Shown piece by piece: positions 1,935-14,738 of a stretch of DNA of 20,000 nucleotides (the stretch's first letter is position 1; every line of letters starts with the position of its first letter). The DNA lies in sequence record SRR31156797_10522. One strand, written 5' to 3'. Below the pieces are notes generated by a model. It did no database searches. It worked only from the letters and a program-made list of their open reading frames with translations, and was not told the DNA's origin. Position numbers and translations under genes: made by a program.

Positions 1935-3941
1935 ATGAATAAAATGCCCCTAATATTATTAATTTTTATTTGTTCATTTATTATTTTGCCAGGAATTGCG
2001 CAGAATAAAACAAGTTTAGATAGTCTAAATGAAAGGTTTGAACGAACTGCAGGAAGAGAGAAATTAGAAACTCTTCTTGAACTTAGTAAGGAATATTGGA
2101 ATATTGATCCTGTTGAAGGTATTAAGCTTGCAAAACACGCATTAGGTACTGCACAAACTCTGGAAAGTGAAGAAGAAATTGTAAAGGCTATGTACTATTT
2201 AGGTACTGCTTATTACATCGATAATCAGTTGGATAATTCCCTTGATTATTTATTACAAGCTCACCAATTTGCTCAAACTCATAATTACGATACTAATACT
2301 GCAAATATTAGTCGTCAGCTTGCTATAGTGTACTTTGAATCAGGTAAGCTTGATAGAATGTATACTTATACAATTCAGGCATTGGACATTTATAATTCAG
2401 GTAAAGATGAATTAGGAATTGCCAGATGTCAGAATTTACTTGGCTTGTATTATAAGGGAGTTAACGAGTACGAAAAAGCAATTGAATACTTCGAGAGCAG
2501 TTTAAATCTTGGAAAAAAAATTGAAAAGACATCTTTAGTTGGATCCATTTTAAATGATGTAGGAAGTATGTATGCCGAAATGGGAGACACGATTAAGGCA
2601 ATACAAATTTACAACGAAGCAGTTCCTTATCATAAATCTAATGGTAGAAATTTTAAGAGTGGAACTTTTGAACTTACTTTAGCTGATTTGTATGTGCAAA
2701 ATGGAAAGTTGCAAAAGGCATCTCTACATTTAAAACAAGGATTTGATATCGCGAGTGATTTAAATTCTAAAAGATTGTTGAGAGATTATTATAGAATATT
2801 GGCTGATTATGAGATTAAAAAGAATAATAAATCCAATGCCTTAATTGCATATCAAAAACTTCAGGCATATGTTGATTCGGTATCTTTAGGACAGTTAAAT
2901 AATAAAATTGAAGAACTCGATTCTCGTCATGCAATAAGTATTTCGAATCAGGAAAACCAGAGGTTACGAGATAAGAATCAAACACAGGAGTTAAAAATTA
3001 CTCAACAATACATAGTCGGATTGTTAATATTTATCGTACTTCTTATTGCAATATTTATTCTTACAATTCGATATCGAAATAACTTGAAAGATAATGAATT
3101 ACTATATCTGAAAAATAGTTTGGTGAATCAACATCAGGAAGAGTTAATTGATGCAATGAAACGCATAAAAATTAGTGAAGATAAGCTCCGTTTAGCAAAC
3201 GATACAAAAGATAAGATGTTCTCTTTAATTGCTCATGATTTGCGAGGTGCAATAGGTAATATCAGCAATGGATTAAGAATGTATCTTGGTGAGGAAGATT
3301 TAAATCTATCAGAAGAAGACAAAGAGGAGTTCTTACAGGCTTTGTTTCATTCATCGGATAGTGCATACGAATTGTTAGAAAATCTTTTGTTTTGGGCTAA
3401 AAATCAAGCCTTAACTTTAACAGCGAATAAGCAAATGGTTGATGCAAGTTCTATTATCAATTCTAATATTGGTTTATTGGGCGATTTGGCTAAAATTAAA
3501 TCCATAAATCTGTTTACATCCATTAACCCGAATGTTGAAGTATTTGTTGATTGGAACATGATTAATACGGTTCTTCGCAATCTGATTTCGAATGCAATTA
3601 AATTCACGAATAAAGATGGCTCAGTTGAGATTAAGTCAGAAATAGGGCAATATTTTGTGAAAATTTCGGTGATTGATAATGGAATTGGCATGCTTCCTGA
3701 ACAAATTGAAAATATCTACGATGGAAAAACTACCGATGGAACTGCAGCTGAGAAAGGAACCGGTTTGGGCTTGACTTTATGTCGTGATTTTTTAATTAAG
3801 AATCATGGCAAAATGTTGGTCACAAGTAAGGTGGATCATGGAAGTACATTTGCATTCATTATTCCACGTAGACCGATGAATGATGAAAAATATTCTGAAT
3901 TAGTAGAAAAAGAACCACTTACTTTCTTAGTAAATAATTAA
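1935..3941 (+). CDS. TPR-repeat membrane sensor histidine kinase
   Basis: Likely start is ATG 1935 (or 1944), not GTG 1878. Signal/TM segment, several TPR helices (YYLGTAYY, NLLGLYY, NDVGSMY), TM YIVGLLIFIVLLIAIFILTI, H-box IAHDLR, N-box RNLISNAIKF, G1 DNGIGM, G2 GTGLGL. Confidence 0.9.
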   Translation: MNKMPLILLIFICSFIILPGIAQNKTSLDSLNERFERTAGREKLETLLELSKEYWNIDPVEGIKLAKHALGTAQTLESEEEIVKAMYYLGTAYYIDNQLDNSLDYLLQAHQFAQTHNYDTNTANISRQLAIVYFESGKLDRMYTYTIQALDIYNSGKDELGIARCQNLLGLYYKGVNEYEKAIEYFESSLNLGKKIEKTSLVGSILNDVGSMYAEMGDTIKAIQIYNEAVPYHKSNGRNFKSGTFELTLADLYVQNGKLQKASLHLKQGFDIASDLNSKRLLRDYYRILADYEIKKNNKSNALIAYQKLQAYVDSVSLGQLNNKIEELDSRHAISISNQENQRLRDKNQTQELKITQQYIVGLLIFIVLLIAIFILTIRYRNNLKDNELLYLKNSLVNQHQEELIDAMKRIKISEDKLRLANDTKDKMFSLIAHDLRGAIGNISNGLRMYLGEEDLNLSEEDKEEFLQALFHSSDSAYELLENLLFWAKNQALTLTANKQMVDASSIINSNIGLLGDLAKIKSINLFTSINPNVEVFVDWNMINTVLRNLISNAIKFTNKDGSVEIKSEIGQYFVKISVIDNGIGMLPEQIENIYDGKTTDGTAAEKGTGLGLTLCRDFLIKNHGKMLVTSKVDHGSTFAFIIPRRPMNDEKYSELVEKEPLTFLVNN

Positions 3942-3988
3942 ATTTAGAGCTGATAATTCACATCAGCTTAAACTAAAATTAGATACTA

Positions 3989-4699
3989 ATGAGATTATTA
4001 CTTATCAGTAATTCAACAAACCCAGGTGAAGAGTACCTGGATTATCCGAAAAATAACATCAAAGAATTCTTAGGTGAAGAACCTGTAAAGGCATTATTTA
4101 TTCCTTATGCAGGAGTAACCGTTTCTTTTGACGATTACGAAGCTAAAGTTAAGGAACGTTTCAATGAAGTAGGGCACAATGTTGTTTCTATTCATCATTT
4201 CGAAAATCCTGTAAAAGCAGTAGAAGAGGCGGAAGCAATTGTTGTTGGTGGTGGTAGCACATGGAATTTATTGCATTTAATTCACAAATACAATCTTACT
4301 GAGCCTATCCGCAACAAGGTAATTAATGAAAAAGCACCATATATTGGTTGGAGTGCAGGTTCAAATTTAACTTGCCCGACTATTAAAACAACCAACGATA
4401 TGCCAATTATTGATCCAATGGGATTCGATGCTTTAAACTTGATTCCTTTCCAAATCAATCCACATTATTTGGATAAAAATCCTGCTGGGCATGGTGGTGA
4501 AACTCGCGAGGATAGAATCAACGAGTTCATGGTTTTGAATCCTGATATGTATATTGCAGGATTGCGTGAAGCAACCATGTTTTTGGTTGAAGATGACAAT
4601 ATCAAGTTAATTGGAGATAGAAATTGTCGGATCTTTAAAAATGGTATTGAAGCCTACGAATTAAGTGCTAAAGATGATTTTAATTTTCTTTTGAAATAA
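3989..4699 (+). CDS. pepE: Dipeptidase E (peptidase S51, alpha-aspartyl dipeptidase)
   Basis: LLLISNST start, FIPYA, VGGG, catalytic GWSAG, PTIKTTNDMPI, QINPHY, GETREDRI. Confidence 0.95.
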   Translation: MRLLLISNSTNPGEEYLDYPKNNIKEFLGEEPVKALFIPYAGVTVSFDDYEAKVKERFNEVGHNVVSIHHFENPVKAVEEAEAIVVGGGSTWNLLHLIHKYNLTEPIRNKVINEKAPYIGWSAGSNLTCPTIKTTNDMPIIDPMGFDALNLIPFQINPHYLDKNPAGHGGETREDRINEFMVLNPDMYIAGLREATMFLVEDDNIKLIGDRNCRIFKNGIEAYELSAKDDFNFLLK

Positions 4700-4717
4700 A
4701 GATTTAAGAATAGCAGG

Positions 4718-4750
4718 AAGCGGTTGATTTAATTTTCAACCGCTTTTTTT
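4718..4750 (+). terminator. Rho-independent terminator after pepE
   Basis: AAGCGGTTGA / TCAACCGCTT perfect stem plus T run. Confidence 0.9.
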
Positions 4751-4762
4751 ATTTGGAATTTC

Positions 4763-4770
4763 TACCTTTG
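4763..4770 (+). promoter_or_regulatory. Bacteroidota housekeeping promoter -7 element
   Basis: TACCTTTG fits TAnnTTTG and lies 55 nt before the transporter ATG. Confidence 0.65.
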
Positions 4771-4825
4771 TCGGCTGAAAAGAACATTTCTTTTCTACAA
4801 TTTCTACTAAATCAATACATTTCTA

Positions 4826-6412
4826 ATGGATTTACTTTCGTCCACATATTTTGTTCTTTTTCTGATTGTTGCAATCGGATTTGTTGTTGGTAATATTAAA
4901 ATAAAAGGCATTTCACTTGATGTTTCGGCTGTGATATTTGTGGCTCTTGTTTTTGGACACTTTGGGGTTAGTATTCCTACCGATATTCAGAAAATTGGAC
5001 TTACTCTTTTTATCTTTACCATAGGAATTCAGGCAGGTCCAGGATTTTTCGAATCCTTTAAAAAGAATGGGAGAGAGTTGGTTGTTTTGGCATTTGTTTT
5101 AGTGGGAAGTGCATCTTTAGTGACACTAGTTTTGGCATTGGCTTTCAAAGTTGATACTGATATCGCAATTGGTTTGCTAACCGGATCCTTGACAAGTACA
5201 CCTGGTTTGGCAGCAGCAATTGAATCTACTCAATCTTCTATGGCTTCTATTGGTTACGGTATTGCTTATCCTTTTGGTGTAATTGGCGTGATTCTTTTTG
5301 TGAGAATGTACCCTAAATTAACTAAAGTGGATATCAATAAGGAAGCGAAAAAATTGGATGACGAGACTCAGCAGAATTTTCCGGAACTTTTTAATAAGAA
5401 CTTCATTGTTGAGAATGAAAATATTGTTGGCAAGAGCATACGTGAATTAAAGATCAGATCAATGACTCAAGCCAATGTTTCCAGAATAATGCATCGCGGT
5501 GAAACCATAGTTCCATTGCCTGAAACCATATTGGAAAAAGGAGATATAGTAAAACTGATTGGAACTGAGCAGGCAATTGAACAAGCTAGAATGTTGATTG
5601 GGGAACAAACCGATGAGAAAATCCCGTTAAGTCGCGATTATGTGGTTGAATCGGTATTGGTAACCAATAAACAAGTGGTAAATAAGACCATTGGACAATT
5701 GAATGTATTAGCCAATTACAATGCCAGAATTACCAGAATTCGTAGAGCGGGAATTGATATGGTTGCAAGCTCAAAATCAGAAATTCGTTTTGGCGATAAG
5801 CTAGTTGTGGCTTGTGGTACAGGTAACATTAAAAATGTTCGACATTTATTTGGTAACGATAGTAAAAAACTTTCGGATACTGATTTCTTTCCTATCGCAA
5901 CAGGAATTGTATTGGGTGTTTTAGTAGGGAAACTGAAAATTTCTTTTTCAGATGATTTTACCTTTAGTTTGGGGTTAACCGGAGGAGTATTGATGGTTGC
6001 CCTGATTTTAAGTAGAATCGGAAAAACCGGACCTATTTTGTGGACCATGTCCGGATCATCTAATCAATTACTTCGTCAGCTTGGTTTATTAATGTTTTTA
6101 GCTGTAGTAGGGACCAGTGCAGGAGCTCACTTGGTTGAGACTTTTAAAGAATCAGGCATGGCATTATTTGGCATCGGTATTGGAATCACCCTGTTGCCAA
6201 TGATTATCACTACGCTAATTGGGCATTTTGTTTTAAAAATGAATGTCTTGAATTTATTAGGTGCTTTAACAGGAAGTATGACGAGCACTCCTGGTTTGGC
6301 CGCGGTAGATGGTATGGCCGACTCAAGTGCACAATCAATAGCTTACGCAACGGTTTATCCGATTGCAATGGTGTTTTTAATTATTTGTGTGCAGATATTA
6401 AGCCTGTTGTAG
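4826..6412 (+). CDS. YidE/YbjL (AspT aspartate:alanine exchanger) family transporter with two TrkA-C domains
   Basis: Duplicated membrane domain with GSLTSTPGLAAA / GSMTSTPGLAAV and YGIAYPFG / YATVYP motifs, flanking two RCK-C domains (LEKGDIVKLIG, IRFGDKLVV). Confidence 0.92.
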   Translation: MDLLSSTYFVLFLIVAIGFVVGNIKIKGISLDVSAVIFVALVFGHFGVSIPTDIQKIGLTLFIFTIGIQAGPGFFESFKKNGRELVVLAFVLVGSASLVTLVLALAFKVDTDIAIGLLTGSLTSTPGLAAAIESTQSSMASIGYGIAYPFGVIGVILFVRMYPKLTKVDINKEAKKLDDETQQNFPELFNKNFIVENENIVGKSIRELKIRSMTQANVSRIMHRGETIVPLPETILEKGDIVKLIGTEQAIEQARMLIGEQTDEKIPLSRDYVVESVLVTNKQVVNKTIGQLNVLANYNARITRIRRAGIDMVASSKSEIRFGDKLVVACGTGNIKNVRHLFGNDSKKLSDTDFFPIATGIVLGVLVGKLKISFSDDFTFSLGLTGGVLMVALILSRIGKTGPILWTMSGSSNQLLRQLGLLMFLAVVGTSAGAHLVETFKESGMALFGIGIGITLLPMIITTLIGHFVLKMNVLNLLGALTGSMTSTPGLAAVDGMADSSAQSIAYATVYPIAMVFLIICVQILSLL

Positions 6413-6488
6413 TTTTAGTGTGCTAAATAAAAAGAAAGGTATGTCCATAAGTTGCTTGCAGAATAATCAAGTTATCTTAGGAAATTAC

Positions 6489-6762
6489 ATGCAATTACTT
6501 TAAAGGATGCAGCAAACCAATACGGACTGTCTCCAAGCTAAAATTGAAGTGTTCCAAACCCTAAGCAACACTCTTCAAGACAAAAGTGAAGCACTCCAAG
6601 CTGCTGGGCGCAAGCTGCAAGATGAGTTGAAGATCTTCCAAGAGCTGAGGAAAACCTTCCAAGACAACAGGAAAGTGTTCCAATACACCAAGGAGCTTTC
6701 TTCAAGACAGGAGGGAAGCATTCCAACCCATAGTTTTCAATCTCCAAGACAGGAAACAGGTA
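6489..6762. repeat. Degenerate 21-bp-period tandem array (11 clear units 6531-6762, plus 2 weaker upstream units); core YTYCAAG + 14 variable nt
   Basis: Unit starts at 6531, 6552, 6573, 6594, 6615, 6636, 6657, 6678, 6700, 6721, 6742; one unit is 22 nt. CAA is invariant at unit positions 4-6 and also in register in units at 6489 and 6510. Confidence 0.85.
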
Positions 6763-6801
6763 CTTATTTCATGTTTGTTAATGGTAGAGTTATTAATTAA
6801 T

Positions 6802-6833
6802 AAAAACCCCTTAAAGAAAACTTCCTTAAGGGA
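6802..6833 (-). terminator. Rho-independent terminator of xth
   Basis: The minus strand reads CCCTTAAGGAA-GTT-TTCTTTAAGGG followed by GTTTTTATT. Confidence 0.7.
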
Positions 6834-6891
6834 TATATAAATGGTTAATTGTTTTGATTAAGAGTGAGTAAGGATAAGTAACAAGAATTAT

Positions 6892-7659
6892 TTAAAAATC
6901 CATCTCAACAACAATTGGGCAATGGTCAGAATGAACTACATCGGCTAAAATAGAAGCGCCATTCAATTTATTCTCCAAACTTTCAGTAACCATGTGGTAA
7001 TCGATTCTCCAGCCTAAGTTTTTGCCACGAGAGCCTGCTCTGTAACTCCACCAACTGTATTTGTCAGGTGATTGATCGAAAACGCGGAAGGTATCAATAA
7101 AACCACTTTCAATAAATTGACTCACCCATTCTCGCTCTTCAGGAAGAAAACCAGAAACATTTTTCTTTTTCTCAGGTCTGCTAATATCAATAGGTTTATG
7201 GCAGATGTTATAATCGCCACCAATTACCAAATTAGGTCGTTCAATTTTCAGTTTATTGATGTACTCCTGAAAATAAGCAAGCCACTCCATTTTATAATCC
7301 TGTCTTGGACCTCCGGTTGTCCCCGATGGATGATAGGTACTAAAAACCGAAATGTCTCCAAAATCGGCTCTTATTGCTCTTCCTTCAACATCATATTTTG
7401 GATTGTCAACTCCAGTAACAACAGCATCTGGTTTTTCCTTGCTAAGGATTCCAACGCCACTGTAGCCTTTTTTCTCTGCAGAAAACCAATAGCAGTGATA
7501 TCCCAATTCTTCGAATAGATGAGATTCAATTTGCTCTGGTTGAGCTTTGGTTTCCTGAATTAATAGTATATCCGGATCTTCCTTCTTTAGCCAGCCAATT
7601 AAGTCTTTGCCCAAAGCAGCTCTGATACCGTTAACATTATAGCTTATTATTTTTCGCAT
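6892..7659 (-). CDS. xth: Exodeoxyribonuclease III (AP endonuclease)
   Basis: Start at ATG 7659 (MRKIISYNVNGIRA); motifs QETK, GYSGV, GDYN, YSWWSYR, GWRIDY, SDHCP. Confidence 0.96.
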   Translation of the reverse strand: MRKIISYNVNGIRAALGKDLIGWLKKEDPDILLIQETKAQPEQIESHLFEELGYHCYWFSAEKKGYSGVGILSKEKPDAVVTGVDNPKYDVEGRAIRADFGDISVFSTYHPSGTTGGPRQDYKMEWLAYFQEYINKLKIERPNLVIGGDYNICHKPIDISRPEKKKNVSGFLPEEREWVSQFIESGFIDTFRVFDQSPDKYSWWSYRAGSRGKNLGWRIDYHMVTESLENKLNGASILADVVHSDHCPIVVEMDF

Positions 7660-7782
7660 AATTGTATTTTTTAGAAAGATTAAAGATAATAATCTATTGG
7701 GAAAAGCCCTGAAATTGGAAGAAGTCTGAAACTTACACAAATCTTTAAGGCTTTAGACGGTAGATAATTGCTTGGAATCAAC

Positions 7783-12777: not shown

Positions 12778-13314
12778 TTGAATATTTTGGAAAATATCAC
12801 AAAATATACGATTCCTTTTAAAGGATTAAAAGATGGAAAGCACGAATTCAATTTCGATGTTGACCATGAGTTTTTTAAAAACTTTCAGACGGAAGATGTT
12901 TACGAGGCTGAAGCAAAAGTAAAAATAGCTTTTGAGAAAAAAACCTTAGTAACAACTTTGGCATTTGACTTAAAGGGAAAATTGAAAATAGCCTGTGACA
13001 GGTGTTTGGAAGAATTAAGTTTAGATGTGGAAGGTGAAAACTTTTTGTATTTAAAATTTGGAGAAGAACACGAAGAATTGGCTGAAGATGTAATTGTGTT
13101 AGCAGAATCTGATAACGAGATTAACGTTGCACAGTACATATATGAGTTGTTTTCACTAAGCTTACCGTTGAGCTTTGTTCATCCCGAAGATGAAGATGGA
13201 AACAGCACTTGTAATGAGGAAATGATTCAAAAATTGAATGACCTCTCGGTGAATGAGGAAGAGAAGATTGACCCGAGATGGAATGATTTAAGAAAATTGA
13301 TTGATAATAACTAG
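12778..13314 (+). CDS. yceD: DUF177 / YceD family protein (23S rRNA accumulation)
   Basis: IPFKGLKDGKHEF, CDRCL, IDPRW..L and position just before rpmF. Start is TTG 12778 or 12787. Confidence 0.9.
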   Translation: MNILENITKYTIPFKGLKDGKHEFNFDVDHEFFKNFQTEDVYEAEAKVKIAFEKKTLVTTLAFDLKGKLKIACDRCLEELSLDVEGENFLYLKFGEEHEELAEDVIVLAESDNEINVAQYIYELFSLSLPLSFVHPEDEDGNSTCNEEMIQKLNDLSVNEEEKIDPRWNDLRKLIDNN

Positions 13315-13331
13315 TTAAATAGGTTTGAAAA

Positions 13332-13517
13332 ATGGCACATCCAAAACACAGAACGTCGAAGCAGAGAAGAAATAAGAGAAGATCTCATCTTAAAACAACT
13401 CCTGCAACTTTAGCATCTTGCTCAAATTGTGGAGCAACTGTTAAATATCACACTGTTTGCCCTGAGTGCGGTTATTACAGAGGCAAATTGGCTATCGAAA
13501 AAGAAGTTACAGCATAA
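13332..13517 (+). CDS. rpmF: 50S ribosomal protein L32 (zinc-ribbon form)
   Basis: MAHPKHRTSKQRRNKRRSH; CSNC...CPECGYYRGK. Confidence 0.98.
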   Translation: MAHPKHRTSKQRRNKRRSHLKTTPATLASCSNCGATVKYHTVCPECGYYRGKLAIEKEVTA

Positions 13518-13739
13518 TCTGAGTAAAATAATTCAGATTTGAAGCTATATGTAAATTTGCTCCTCGGATATTTCTCAGGGGCAAATTTGCGTTATACATT
13601 ATTGAATTAATGCCCTATTATATTGGTGTAAACCAATGGGCTTGTAAAGGTTAAAATTACCCAAACAAGTGGTGATATAGGGATAAATTCTGTATAATTG
13701 TGAGCCTATTATCTGATAAAAACTAAGTAAGCTTAAACA

Positions 13740-14738
13740 ATGTCAAAAATTAATGCAGTTATAACAGGAGTTGGGGCTTATCTACCCGACTACATTCTTA
13801 CCAATGATGAACTAAGTACAATGGTCGATACATCCGATGAATGGATCATGACCCGTATTGGTATCAAAGAAAGAAGAATTCTAAAAGGAGAAGGTAAAGG
13901 ATCTTCGGATCTTGGACAAAAAGCAGTTGAAGAGCTATTGCGAAAGACTGGAACTTCACCTGAAGAGGTTGATTTGTTGATTTGTGCAACTGTAACTCCC
14001 GACATGCAATTTCCGGCTACAGCAAATATCATTAGTGATAAAGTGGGGATTAATAACGCATTCAGTTTTGACTTAAATGCAGGCTGTTCGGGATTTTTGT
14101 TTGCATTAGCAACAGGTTCAAAATATATTACTTCTGGTTTGTACAAGAAAGTAATAATTGTAGGTTCAGAAAAAATGTCTTCAATTGTAGATTATTCTGA
14201 TCGTCAGACTTGTCCTATTTTTGGTGATGGAGCAGCGGCAGTTATGCTAGAGCCTACTACTGAAAATGTTGGTATTGTAGATGAGATGTTGCATACTCAA
14301 GGATTTGGTCGCAAGCATTTACATCAAAAAGCTGGTGGATCATGCAAGCCGGCAAGTCACGAAACGGTTGATGCAAGAGAGCATTTCATTTATCAGGAAG
14401 GAAATCATGTATTCAAACATGCAGTTTCTAACATGGCAGATGTTTCTGTTGAAATGATGGAAAAACACAACATGACTGCTGATGATTTAGCTTGGTTGGT
14501 TCCACATCAGGCAAACAATCGTATTATCGAAGCTACAGCTAAACGAATGGGCTTAGCTAAAGAAAAAGTGATGATTAACATCGAGAAATACGGAAACACG
14601 ACTTCAGCTACAATTCCATTGTGTTTGTGGGAGTGGGAAAATCAATTGAAAAAAGGAGATAATATTATTCTTTCAGGATTTGGAGCAGGTTTTACCTGGG
14701 GATCTATCTTGTTGAAATGGGGTTACGATCCTAAATAA
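13740..14738 (+). CDS. fabH: 3-oxoacyl-ACP synthase III
   Basis: DTSDEWI.TR.GI, catalytic [33 protein letters not shown]. Confidence 0.97.

What the first reader, a model, noticed from the sequence alone, without database searches (positions are those of the whole stretch)
6489..6762. Unexplained 21-bp-period array: short conserved core (YTYCAAG) alternating with unique 14-nt segments
Seen: between the convergent transporter and xth genes lie 11 phased units: CTCCAAGctaaaattgaagtg, TTCCAAAccctaagcaacact, CTTCAAGacaaaagtgaagca, CTCCAAGctgctgggcgcaag, CTGCAAGatgagttgaagatc, TTCCAAGagctgaggaaaacc, TTCCAAGacaacaggaaagtg, TTCCAATacaccaaggagcttt, CTTCAAGacaggagggaagca, TTCCAACccatagttttcaat, CTCCAAGacaggaaacaggta. 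CAA also stays in register in two upstream units. CAA is never replaced by synonymous CAG, the period survives a frame-breaking 1-nt insertion, and a hand count gives 104/232 G+C (about 45%) against AT-rich flanks. Inference: the constraint may act on DNA or RNA rather than protein. Options are a miniature repeat-spacer array (processed small RNAs or guides) or phased protein-binding sites, since 21 bp is about two helical turns. It is not CRISPR, and no partner gene is visible in the window.
Basis: partly seen in the sequence, partly recalled or inferred. Interest (0 to 1): 0.75.

Follow-up and report, generated by a model that had tools for sequence, protein, structure and literature searches.

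The report
Orphan 21-bp phased repeat array
This non-coding string of thirteen 21/22-base repeats is a stray copy of the repeat block that, in this bacterial family, normally follows an uncharacterised helical-protein gene, and the gene-plus-repeat pair looks like an undescribed DNA-protein recognition system.

Summary
The array is real. It has 13 units at 6489-6762, each 21 nt except one of 22 nt, with T-CAA invariant in the 11 main units.

It is not a gene. The ORF over it uses a different frame in a paralogue. All five codon differences to the nearest relative change the amino acid. Whole units come and go.

It is not a spacer-acquiring array either. It aligns unit by unit (73%) with an array in marine metagenome contigs that lies just downstream of a ~250-aa all-helical gene. 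That gene family (here "A1") is a distant sister of NCBIfam "PQLLE family". It carries a 20-22-bp-period array downstream in 32 of 48 loci, against 0 of 49 upstream and 0 of 48 at control periods. Each paralogue has its own core.

The window copy is an orphan, with no A1 gene in the window. Core positions were kept better (42/44) than spacers (104/151) since the two arrays split.

Best reading: helically phased DNA sites read in trans by the cognate protein. Binding is inferred, not shown.

The repeat class is in print as an enigma (Subirana and Messeguer). I found no printed gene link. This scan met the PQLLE pairing four times before on other DNA.

The parts
6489..6530 (+). Two degenerate leading units (CAA kept in register)
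   Evidence: The paralogous arrays also begin with two degenerate units.
6531..6762 (+). Eleven main units, consensus cTCCAAGaca plus an 11-12-nt variable segment
   Evidence: Collinear with the gene-linked array of L223 at 213/290 identity.
6678..6699 (+).
   Evidence: The homologous unit of L223 is also 22 nt. Across the family, spacings are 21 (132 cases) or 22 (45 cases).
6763..6805 (+). Tail between the array and the hairpin. It aligns with the stretch between terminator and array in L223.
   Evidence: (alignment), read directly.
6806..6834 (-). Terminator-like hairpin followed by a T run, downstream of the exonuclease III gene
6507..6800 (+). 97-aa ORF that reads the units as (L/F)Q heptads. 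Judged spurious.
   Evidence: No Pfam hit above cut-off. Only 3 tiny look-alike clusters. All 5 codon differences to L012 are non-synonymous. The paralogue's ORF uses another frame.
4826..6412 (+). Flanking Asp-Al_Ex/TrkA_C transporter gene (not part of the element)
6892..7740 (-). Flanking exonuclease III-type gene (not part of the element). It occupies the place the A1 gene has at gene-linked arrays.

Best explanation
The array is a non-coding DNA element. It is an orphan paralogue of the 21/22-bp-period core array that, in Marinifilaceae, sits just downstream of a stand-alone ~250-aa all-helical gene (family 'A1', a distant sister of NCBIfam NF052641 'PQLLE family').

Shown: the array belongs to a multi-copy family. 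It is collinear with a gene-linked array. The A1 gene family is tied to such arrays, each paralogue with its own core. The core positions were preferentially kept.

Inferred: the cores, placed every two turns of the helix and therefore on one face of the DNA, are recognition sites on which the cognate A1 protein assembles. The orphan copy is read in trans. What the protein-DNA complex does is not known; candidates are locus marking or tethering, or a barrier to transcription or replication.
For: (1) The array is non-coding. At the same transporter/xth slot, three other Marinifilum species have arrays of TCCAAGACA cores with mixed 21/22 spacing and no through-ORF. Against the nearest relative, L012, there are 6 substitutions in 5 codons, all non-synonymous, plus a 21-nt unit indel. 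The paralogue's ORF runs in a different frame.

(2) It belongs to a multi-copy family. AAG-, CGG- and GTG-centred TCCNNGAC arrays occur at 2-4 or more loci per genome in 15 of 96 genomes of the family. Spacing is 21 in 132 cases, 22 in 45 and other in 1.

(3) There is a gene link. Of 48 A1 loci, 32 have a chain of at least 4 copies of an exact 6-mer at 20-22 spacing within 700 nt downstream. The count is 0 of 49 upstream and 0 of 48 at control spacings of 16-18 or 24-26. Cores differ between paralogues. A1 has no other conserved neighbour.

(4) The window array aligns unit by unit with the gene-linked array of L223: 213/290 identity, score 219 against a shuffled maximum of 13. The two arrays have the same core profile, CTCCAAgaca.

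(5) There is constraint. Identity between window and L223 is 42/44 at the invariant core positions against 104/151 at spacer positions (Fisher p = 1.3e-4). The gene-linked array is 91.8-97.3% identical among four species whose flanking genes are 88.6-92.6% identical.

(6) The evidence points to DNA rather than RNA. In 22 of 32 arrays, exact inverted copies of the core flank the direct block, often 21 nt apart. The terminator lies before the array in some paralogues and after it in others. RNA folding z-scores are +0.74 and +0.12. There is no Rfam match.

(7) 13 of the 15 genomes with TCCNNGAC arrays have A1 genes, against 17 of the other 81.
Against: Binding was not tested. The A1 model (pLDDT 92, all-helical) matches no known DNA-binding fold, only generic helical bundles.

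One genome assembled as a single 4.8-Mb contig (G055) has GTG-type arrays but no A1 gene.

CGG-type orphan arrays in G002 and G005 have no CGG-type A1 gene among the paralogues examined.

Recent divergence of the window array from L012 (6/232 = 2.6%) is no lower than that of the neighbouring genes (16/1587 and 18/849), so no constraint is visible over that short time.

Contigs from RNA libraries cover parts of the array, so transcription is not excluded.

The partner gene could not be looked for in the window's own genome, because none is held.

Co-inheritance of adjacent DNA would give protein-core co-variation without any binding.
Confidence: 0.55

Rival explanations
1. Functionless relic. 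The window copy is a duplicated array that lost, or never had, its gene and is decaying neutrally. Its regularity is inherited, not maintained.
For: No A1 gene in the window. G-A-C of the family core is degenerate here. Unit number varies among close relatives: 13 units here, 12 in L012, and about 7 in P0003 and an RNA-library contig. Divergence from L012 is about the same as in neighbouring genes. G055 keeps arrays without any A1 gene. Locus 3 of G004 carries an array plus only the last ~25 codons of the gene.
Against: The same 'degenerate' core profile is found in the gene-linked L223 array, so it is the lineage's core and not decay. Core positions are kept at 42/44 against 104/151 for spacers since the two arrays split. 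The 21/22 register is intact over 13 units.
Confidence: 0.2
2. RNA-level element. The array is transcribed, as a 3' UTR of the upstream gene or as its own RNA, and the repeated single-stranded motif acts as a multivalent sponge or scaffold for a protein or RNA.
For: RNA-library contigs cover 6321-6574, 6396-6537 and 6524-6594 joined to 6722-6794. The strand is purine-rich and poor in stops, and the predicted RNA is unstructured, as sponge RNAs are. In passages I read, Subirana and Messeguer report transcription of Bacillus coagulans tandem repeats, there of 52 nt (PMC8625621).
Against: Contigs cannot show strand, ends or level, and DNA carry-over is possible. Inverted core copies facing the direct block are frequent, 22 of 32. 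The position relative to the terminator is not conserved. There is no Rfam family. In relatives, no room for a promoter lies between the upstream stop codon and the first unit.
Confidence: 0.12
3. Mobile-element end. The phased repeats are subterminal transposase or recombinase binding sites of a MITE-like or Tn7-like element.
For: In G054, array plus ~500 nt is present in several copies of 88-97% identity. The same intergenic slot holds different array types in opposite orientations in different species. IS fragments lie near two copies.
Against: No transposase or integrase is consistently adjacent. There is no second end and no cargo. Locus 2 is stably inherited in four species. The consistent neighbour is the A1 gene.
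Confidence: 0.05
4. A real coiled-coil micro-protein gene (97 aa, (L/F)Q heptads) with a frameshift.
For: An open frame at 6507-6800. NCBI annotates the L012 version as a hypothetical protein. Weak sub-threshold coiled-coil-like Pfam hits.
Against: 5 of 5 codon differences are non-synonymous. CAA is never CAG. Paralogous arrays are open in other frames or not at all. The family mixes 21- and 22-nt units. Only 3 tiny look-alike clusters were found in 5.8 billion proteins.
Confidence: 0.02

Closest known systems
Constant-size (20-21 nt), variable-sequence tandem repeats of bacteria (Subirana and Messeguer, Int J Mol Sci 2021, PMC8161180; abstract and passages read)
   Same: Repeat length is fixed at about two helical turns. 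Sequence differs between families within one genome. The repeats are non-coding. The authors also suggest a protein that polymerises on the DNA.
   Different: In the passages I read, that work gives no associated gene and deals with Bacillus. Here the arrays are tied to a specific gene family, have a short conserved core plus variable segments, and include orphan copies.
PQLLE-family gene (NCBIfam NF052641) with a 21-bp array, as noted four times earlier by this scan (e1-4853128, e1-4532530, e1-2600741, e1-2573747; unpublished AI notes)
   Same: A stand-alone helical protein gene of 210-250 aa beside a ~21-bp-period array whose core differs from paralogue to paralogue, sometimes with inverted copies facing the direct block. 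11 of 17 A1 proteins hit NF052641 weakly.
   Different: A1 proteins score below the family cut-off (best E 3.5e-8; cut-off 80 bits). Their arrays lie downstream of the gene. At 10 of 12 PQLLE-profile loci the arrays lie upstream; 10 of these 12 loci score above the cut-off and 2 (L173, L178) score below it. The window copy has no gene at all.
ParR-parC type II plasmid partition centromeres (recalled, not tested)
   Same: Tandem, helically phased short repeats bound cooperatively by a small protein encoded next to them; two blocks may face each other.
   Different: No ParM/ParA-type NTPase is adjacent. The modules are chromosomal, with up to 11 per genome. The protein is not a ribbon-helix-helix by the fold searches. 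The arrays lie downstream of the gene, not in its promoter.
Iterons with Rep initiators of theta plasmids (recalled, not tested)
   Same: Direct repeats of about 19-22 bp in phase, specific to the adjacent protein.
   Different: There are many modules per chromosome, no replicon context, and a protein unlike Rep by sequence or fold search.
CRISPR arrays
   Same: A conserved part alternates with a variable part at fixed period.
   Different: The conserved part is only 7-10 nt and the unit only 21-22 nt. The variable parts are inherited between paralogous arrays. No cas gene lies among the window's ORFs.

Membership tests
Constant-size 20-21-nt variable-sequence bacterial tandem repeats (Subirana and Messeguer) | Repeat length fixed at 20-21 (to 23) nt over at least 4 units | tested here: met
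   13 units of 21 nt, one of them 22 nt. Family spacings are 21 in 132 cases and 22 in 45.
Constant-size 20-21-nt variable-sequence bacterial tandem repeats (Subirana and Messeguer) | Several families of the same length but different sequence within one genome; non-coding | tested here: met
   Different cores at 9 A1 loci of G002 and G005. Non-coding status.
PQLLE-family gene + array module (NF052641) | Adjacent gene scoring above the NF052641 cut-off (80 bits) | tested here: not met
   There is no such gene in the window. The related A1 proteins reach at best E 3.5e-8, below the cut-off.
PQLLE-family gene + array module (NF052641) | Array of ~21-bp period immediately upstream of the gene | tested here: not met
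   A1 arrays are downstream in 32/48 loci and upstream in 0/49. At 10 of 12 PQLLE-profile loci the arrays are upstream; 2 of the 12 loci score below the cut-off.
A1 gene + downstream array module (defined here) | Collinear homology of the array to a gene-linked array | tested here: met
   213/290 identity, score 219 against a shuffled maximum of 13.
A1 gene + downstream array module (defined here) | A1 gene within ~400 nt of the array | tested here: not met
   tblastn of the 254-aa protein against the window gives no hit. Hence 'orphan'.
CRISPR | Repeats of at least ~23 nt, unique acquired spacers, cas genes nearby | tested here: not met
   The core is 7-10 nt. Spacers are homologous between paralogues. 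No cas domains in the window ORFs.
Type II partition (ParR-parC) | Adjacent actin-like or Walker NTPase gene | tested here: not met
   No recurrent neighbour of A1 genes in 34 loci.
Type II partition (ParR-parC) | Ribbon-helix-helix adaptor protein binding the repeats | tested here: inconclusive
   Fold searches give only generic helical bundles. Binding cannot be tested here.
Coiled-coil protein gene | One reading frame kept across homologues, with synonymous variation | tested here: not met
Known RNA families (Rfam 15) | Match at or near the gathering score | tested here: not met
   Only chance-level hits outside the array. None over arrays in L081, L093, L140 or L147.

The most novel reading that the evidence does not exclude
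A1/PQLLE-like proteins and their private 21-bp arrays form a widespread, undescribed chromosomal system of orthogonal protein-DNA 'address' pairs, with up to 11 pairs per genome. In this reading, orphan arrays such as this one are extra docking sites. Through them one protein bridges or marks distant loci, or blocks polymerases at gene ends. That would make it a new kind of bacterial chromosome-organising or insulating element.
Probability: 0.25. Interest if true: 0.85.

Novelty: new variant of a known kind. Interest (0 to 1): 0.62.

Why it matters
Tandem repeats of exactly two helical turns with free sequence have been reported across bacteria as an unexplained curiosity. Tying them to a specific, large and wholly uncharacterised protein family gives that puzzle a testable handle: express one protein and ask whether it binds its own array. 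The family has 2142 representative clusters at E <= 0.001.

This window adds three things:
- a sister family whose arrays lie downstream of the gene, not upstream;
- proof that arrays can be copied away from their gene while keeping their cores;
- a case where the conserved part of the core has shifted together with the protein.

It also flags a spurious 'hypothetical protein' annotation.

Tried and rejected
- Whole-genome searches for the window itself: no genome is held.
- Tandem Repeats Finder: the array is not reported.
- Promoter scan of 6300-7000: nothing inside the element.
- Rfam: nothing relevant.
- Dispersed single cores: TCCAAGACA is not enriched outside arrays. G002 has 25 hits against 62 for the reversed control, so there is no regulon-like scatter.
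- Fold and sequence searches for the A1 protein gave nothing informative. Foldseek/PDB found no hit at E <= 0.001. VIA wide found only generic helical bundles, Z <= 8.8. PDB sequences gave 0 hits. Pfam, PADLOC and PHROGs gave nothing meaningful. The protein atlas found only 'hypothetical protein' clusters.
- Homodimer prediction: no verdict.
- RNA-library contigs: only partial cover of the array, with no information on strand, ends or level; parts without cover mean nothing.
- Conserved neighbours of A1: none.
- Earlier scan notes searched by sequence and by place: none.
- Literature: searching 'PQLLE' gave 5 unrelated papers. Searches for 21-bp repeats in Bacteroidota and for two-helical-turn repeats with uncharacterised proteins found nothing relevant.
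- A LytTR-type site geometry (9 bp + 12/13) was considered from memory only and not tested.
- In one search the L149 row was given in the wrong orientation and is disregarded.

Full report
**1. The observation**

The region 6489-6762 holds 13 head-to-tail units. Eleven are clear (6531-6762) and two degenerate ones lead them. All are 21 nt except the unit at 6678, which is 22 nt. Within the eleven units, T at position 2 and C-A-A at positions 4-6 never vary. The following G-A-C is only partly kept, and the remaining 11-12 positions are close to random. G+C is 44.8%, against 25-29% in the adjacent non-coding DNA. A chain of six YTYCAA words at 21/22 spacing is never approached in shuffles, where the maximum is 2 in 200. 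The flanks are a convergent Asp-Al_Ex/TrkA_C transporter gene and an exonuclease III-type gene. The rest of the window is ordinary housekeeping DNA of a Marinifilum (Bacteroidota) chromosome.

**2. It is not a protein gene**

A 97-aa ORF (6507-6800) reads the units as (L/F)Q heptads until the 22-nt unit throws the repeat out of frame. It has no family above cut-off and only three tiny look-alike clusters in 5.8 billion proteins.

The nearest relative is L012, whose transporter protein is 100% identical. Against it, the ORF shows 6 substitutions in 5 codons, all changing the amino acid, plus loss of one whole 21-nt unit. Another variant lacks about six units: P0003 and a 127-nt skip in an RNA-library contig.

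In three other Marinifilum species the same slot holds an array of TCCAAGACA cores with mixed 21- and 22-nt units and no ORF through it. In the closest paralogous array the open frame is a different one, reading S-K rather than L-Q. The frames stay open simply because the strand is purine-rich.

**3. It belongs to a multi-copy family of arrays**

Of 20 related transporter loci printed, 6 carry an array in this slot. One is of the window's type (L012), three are the AAG type, and two are a CGG type (TCCCGGACA) in the opposite orientation. Of the other 14, 13 go straight from terminator to the next gene and one (L001) holds an unrelated insertion instead.

The same genomes hold further arrays at other loci. 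Across 96 genomes of the family, 15 have arrays matching TCCNNGAC three times at 12-15-nt gaps. The reversed-pattern control matches in only 6 of the 96 genomes, mostly 1-3 times. Adjacent cores are 21 nt apart in 132 cases, 22 nt in 45 and otherwise in 1. The single core is not enriched outside arrays.

**4. The partner gene**

At 'locus 2' of four Marinifilum species, the AAG-type array lies between an M23 peptidase gene and the 3' end of a 254-aa ORF. That ORF has 9 paralogues in each of two Marinifilum genomes, and almost every paralogue is followed by its own ~21-bp-period array with its own core.

Counted blind over 48 loci with enough flanking DNA, 32 have a chain of at least four copies of an exact 6-mer at 20-22 spacing (or twice that) within 700 nt downstream. 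The count is 0 of 49 upstream and 0 of 48 at spacings of 16-18 or 24-26. No other gene recurs beside them.

The family, 'A1' (alignment A1), is found in 30 of 96 genomes of the family and in 3 of 301 sampled across the phylum. It has 2142 representative clusters at E <= 0.001 in 1.84 billion proteins. Every cluster that carries a name is called 'hypothetical protein'.

Pfam has nothing for it. 11 of 17 members hit NCBIfam NF052641 'PQLLE family' weakly, with best E 3.5e-8, below the 80-bit cut-off. The AlphaFold model is confident (pLDDT 92) and all-helical. It resembles nothing informative.

I examined 12 loci matching the PQLLE profile in the same genomes, 10 above the family cut-off and 2 below it. 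They carry their arrays upstream: 10 of 12 have a chain, two of these only on an A/T-only word. A1 is therefore a sister family with the array on the other side of the gene.

**5. The window's array is an orphan copy of a gene-linked array**

A 74%-identical version of the 254-aa protein (P0006) was found on three marine metagenome contigs with the same synteny: gene, terminator, array, convergent M23 peptidase.

Its array, read on the opposite strand, aligns collinearly with the window's array over all 13 units. Identity is 213/290 (73%) and the score is 219 against at most 13 for shuffles. The match is better than to the AAG-type arrays of M. flexuosum, which score 55-73. The 22-nt unit is shared.

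The two arrays also share the same core profile: CTCCAA strongly kept and G-A-C weakly. The arrays linked to the M. flexuosum-type protein keep A-A-G-A-C instead. So what looked like a decayed core is the normal core of this lineage.

The window has no A1 gene. The exonuclease gene sits where the A1 gene would be.

Orphan copies are common. In G054, array plus ~500 nt occurs in several copies of 88-97% identity. In G004 an orphan still carries the last ~25 codons of the gene.

**6. Constraint**

Since the window's array and the L223 array diverged, identity is 42/44 at the four invariant core positions, 24/31 at G-A-C and 104/151 elsewhere (core against the rest, Fisher p = 1.3e-4). The core positions were chosen from the window's own units, but their identity to L223 is an independent observation.

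At locus 2 the whole non-coding array is 91.8-97.3% identical among four species. Their flanking peptidase and transporter genes are 88.6-92.6% identical, and the A1 gene itself is 96.6-97.4% identical.

Over the very short distance to L012, the array has changed about as fast as its neighbours: 6/232 against 16/1587 and 18/849. That comparison says nothing either way.

**7. DNA or RNA**

Four things favour double-stranded DNA as the level of action.
- The period is exactly two helical turns.
- Exact inverted copies of the core lie beside the direct block in 22 of 32 arrays, often themselves 21 nt apart, and up to 7 face 7.
- The intrinsic terminator of the A1 gene lies before the array in some paralogues and after it in others.
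- There is no RNA-structure signal and no Rfam family.

Transcription is not excluded. Contigs from three RNA libraries cover parts of the array together with the end of the transporter gene. Contigs, however, show neither strand nor level.

**8. What argues against the main reading**

Nothing here shows binding. The protein has no recognisable DNA-binding fold. G055, a single 4.8-Mb contig, has GTG-type arrays and no A1 gene. CGG-type orphans in G002 and G005 have no CGG-type gene among the paralogues I examined, although one array mixes CGG and AAG cores. I could not check the window's own genome for the partner gene.

**9. Known and new**

Subirana and Messeguer described bacterial tandem repeats of constant 20-21-nt size and variable sequence as enigmatic. 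They guessed at a protein polymerising on DNA or at RNA roles. In the passages I read, no gene is linked to them (PMC8161180; PMC8625621).

Searches for 'PQLLE' and for 21-bp or two-turn repeats with an uncharacterised protein found nothing relevant. Supplements were not read.

Four earlier notes of this scan, on other genomes, report PQLLE genes with upstream 21-bp arrays. They gave me the lead, which I then tested.

The closest mechanistic analogues, ParR-parC centromeres and Rep-iteron pairs, are recalled from general knowledge. They fail on context: there is no NTPase, no replicon, and there are many modules per chromosome.

**10. Verdict**

The element is a non-coding, orphan member of an A1-gene-associated class of 21/22-bp phased arrays. 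It most likely acts as a set of protein-binding sites on DNA (confidence 0.55), and its biological role is unknown.

Noticed in passing
L001:3850-4550 (Marinifilum MAG, same transporter slot): Instead of an array, the slot holds a ~600-nt reverse-strand coding-looking stretch flanked by copies of a ~35-nt palindrome. It looks like a REP/RAYT-type insertion. This was read by eye only.
   Followed up: no
G041:C55:10206-10466, C77:8251-8412, C105:7-157: A 2-Mb genome of the family has long arrays of a near-perfect 22-nt unit containing a palindrome (TCCGGGACATGTCCCCGA...), several at contig ends, and no A1 gene. This is a different repeat class that merely matched my pattern.
   Followed up: no
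L143 (G054:C10:2000-18000), read on the locus's + strand: ORF 3346-7515 on the - strand: A 1389-aa Cas9-like ORF (N-terminus typical of Cas9, judged by eye) starts ~550 nt from a GTG-type array that is itself followed by an A1 gene. Probably coincidence.
   Followed up: no
L140:4395-4570 and 13001-14593: A group II intron domain (RF02001, 104 bits) and a reverse-transcriptase ORF lie in a region of G054 crowded with partial copies of the array-adjacent repeat.
   Followed up: partly
G055 (single 4.8-Mb contig): C1:2304107-2304327 and C1:3532933-3533158: GTG-type arrays, one with two alternating spacer types giving a 43-bp higher-order period, in a genome with no A1 gene at E <= 1e-10.
   Followed up: partly
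A1 loci in draft genomes (table): Many A1 genes lie within 0.3-1 kb of a contig end (for example G068:C360, G008:C10, G014:C14, G064:C134, G006:C87), as if the arrays break short-read assemblies. Arrays may therefore be under-counted in drafts.
   Followed up: no
L081/L075/L083/L065 (locus 2 of four Marinifilum species): The A1 gene is 96.6-97.4% identical in DNA and 98.4-98.8% in protein among species whose neighbouring genes are 88.6-92.6% identical. This means either unusually strong constraint, also on synonymous sites, or recent exchange of the gene-array module.
   Followed up: partly
L163:2197-2720 (G005:C2, downstream of an A1 paralogue): One A1 paralogue is followed by a composite block in which at least three different cores (CTCCCAAC, GCAGATCA and their inverted forms) are nested symmetrically.
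   Followed up: no
G064:C203:17693-17806: A single array mixes a CGG core with AAG cores. This hints that the two core types can interconvert or are read by one protein.
   Followed up: no
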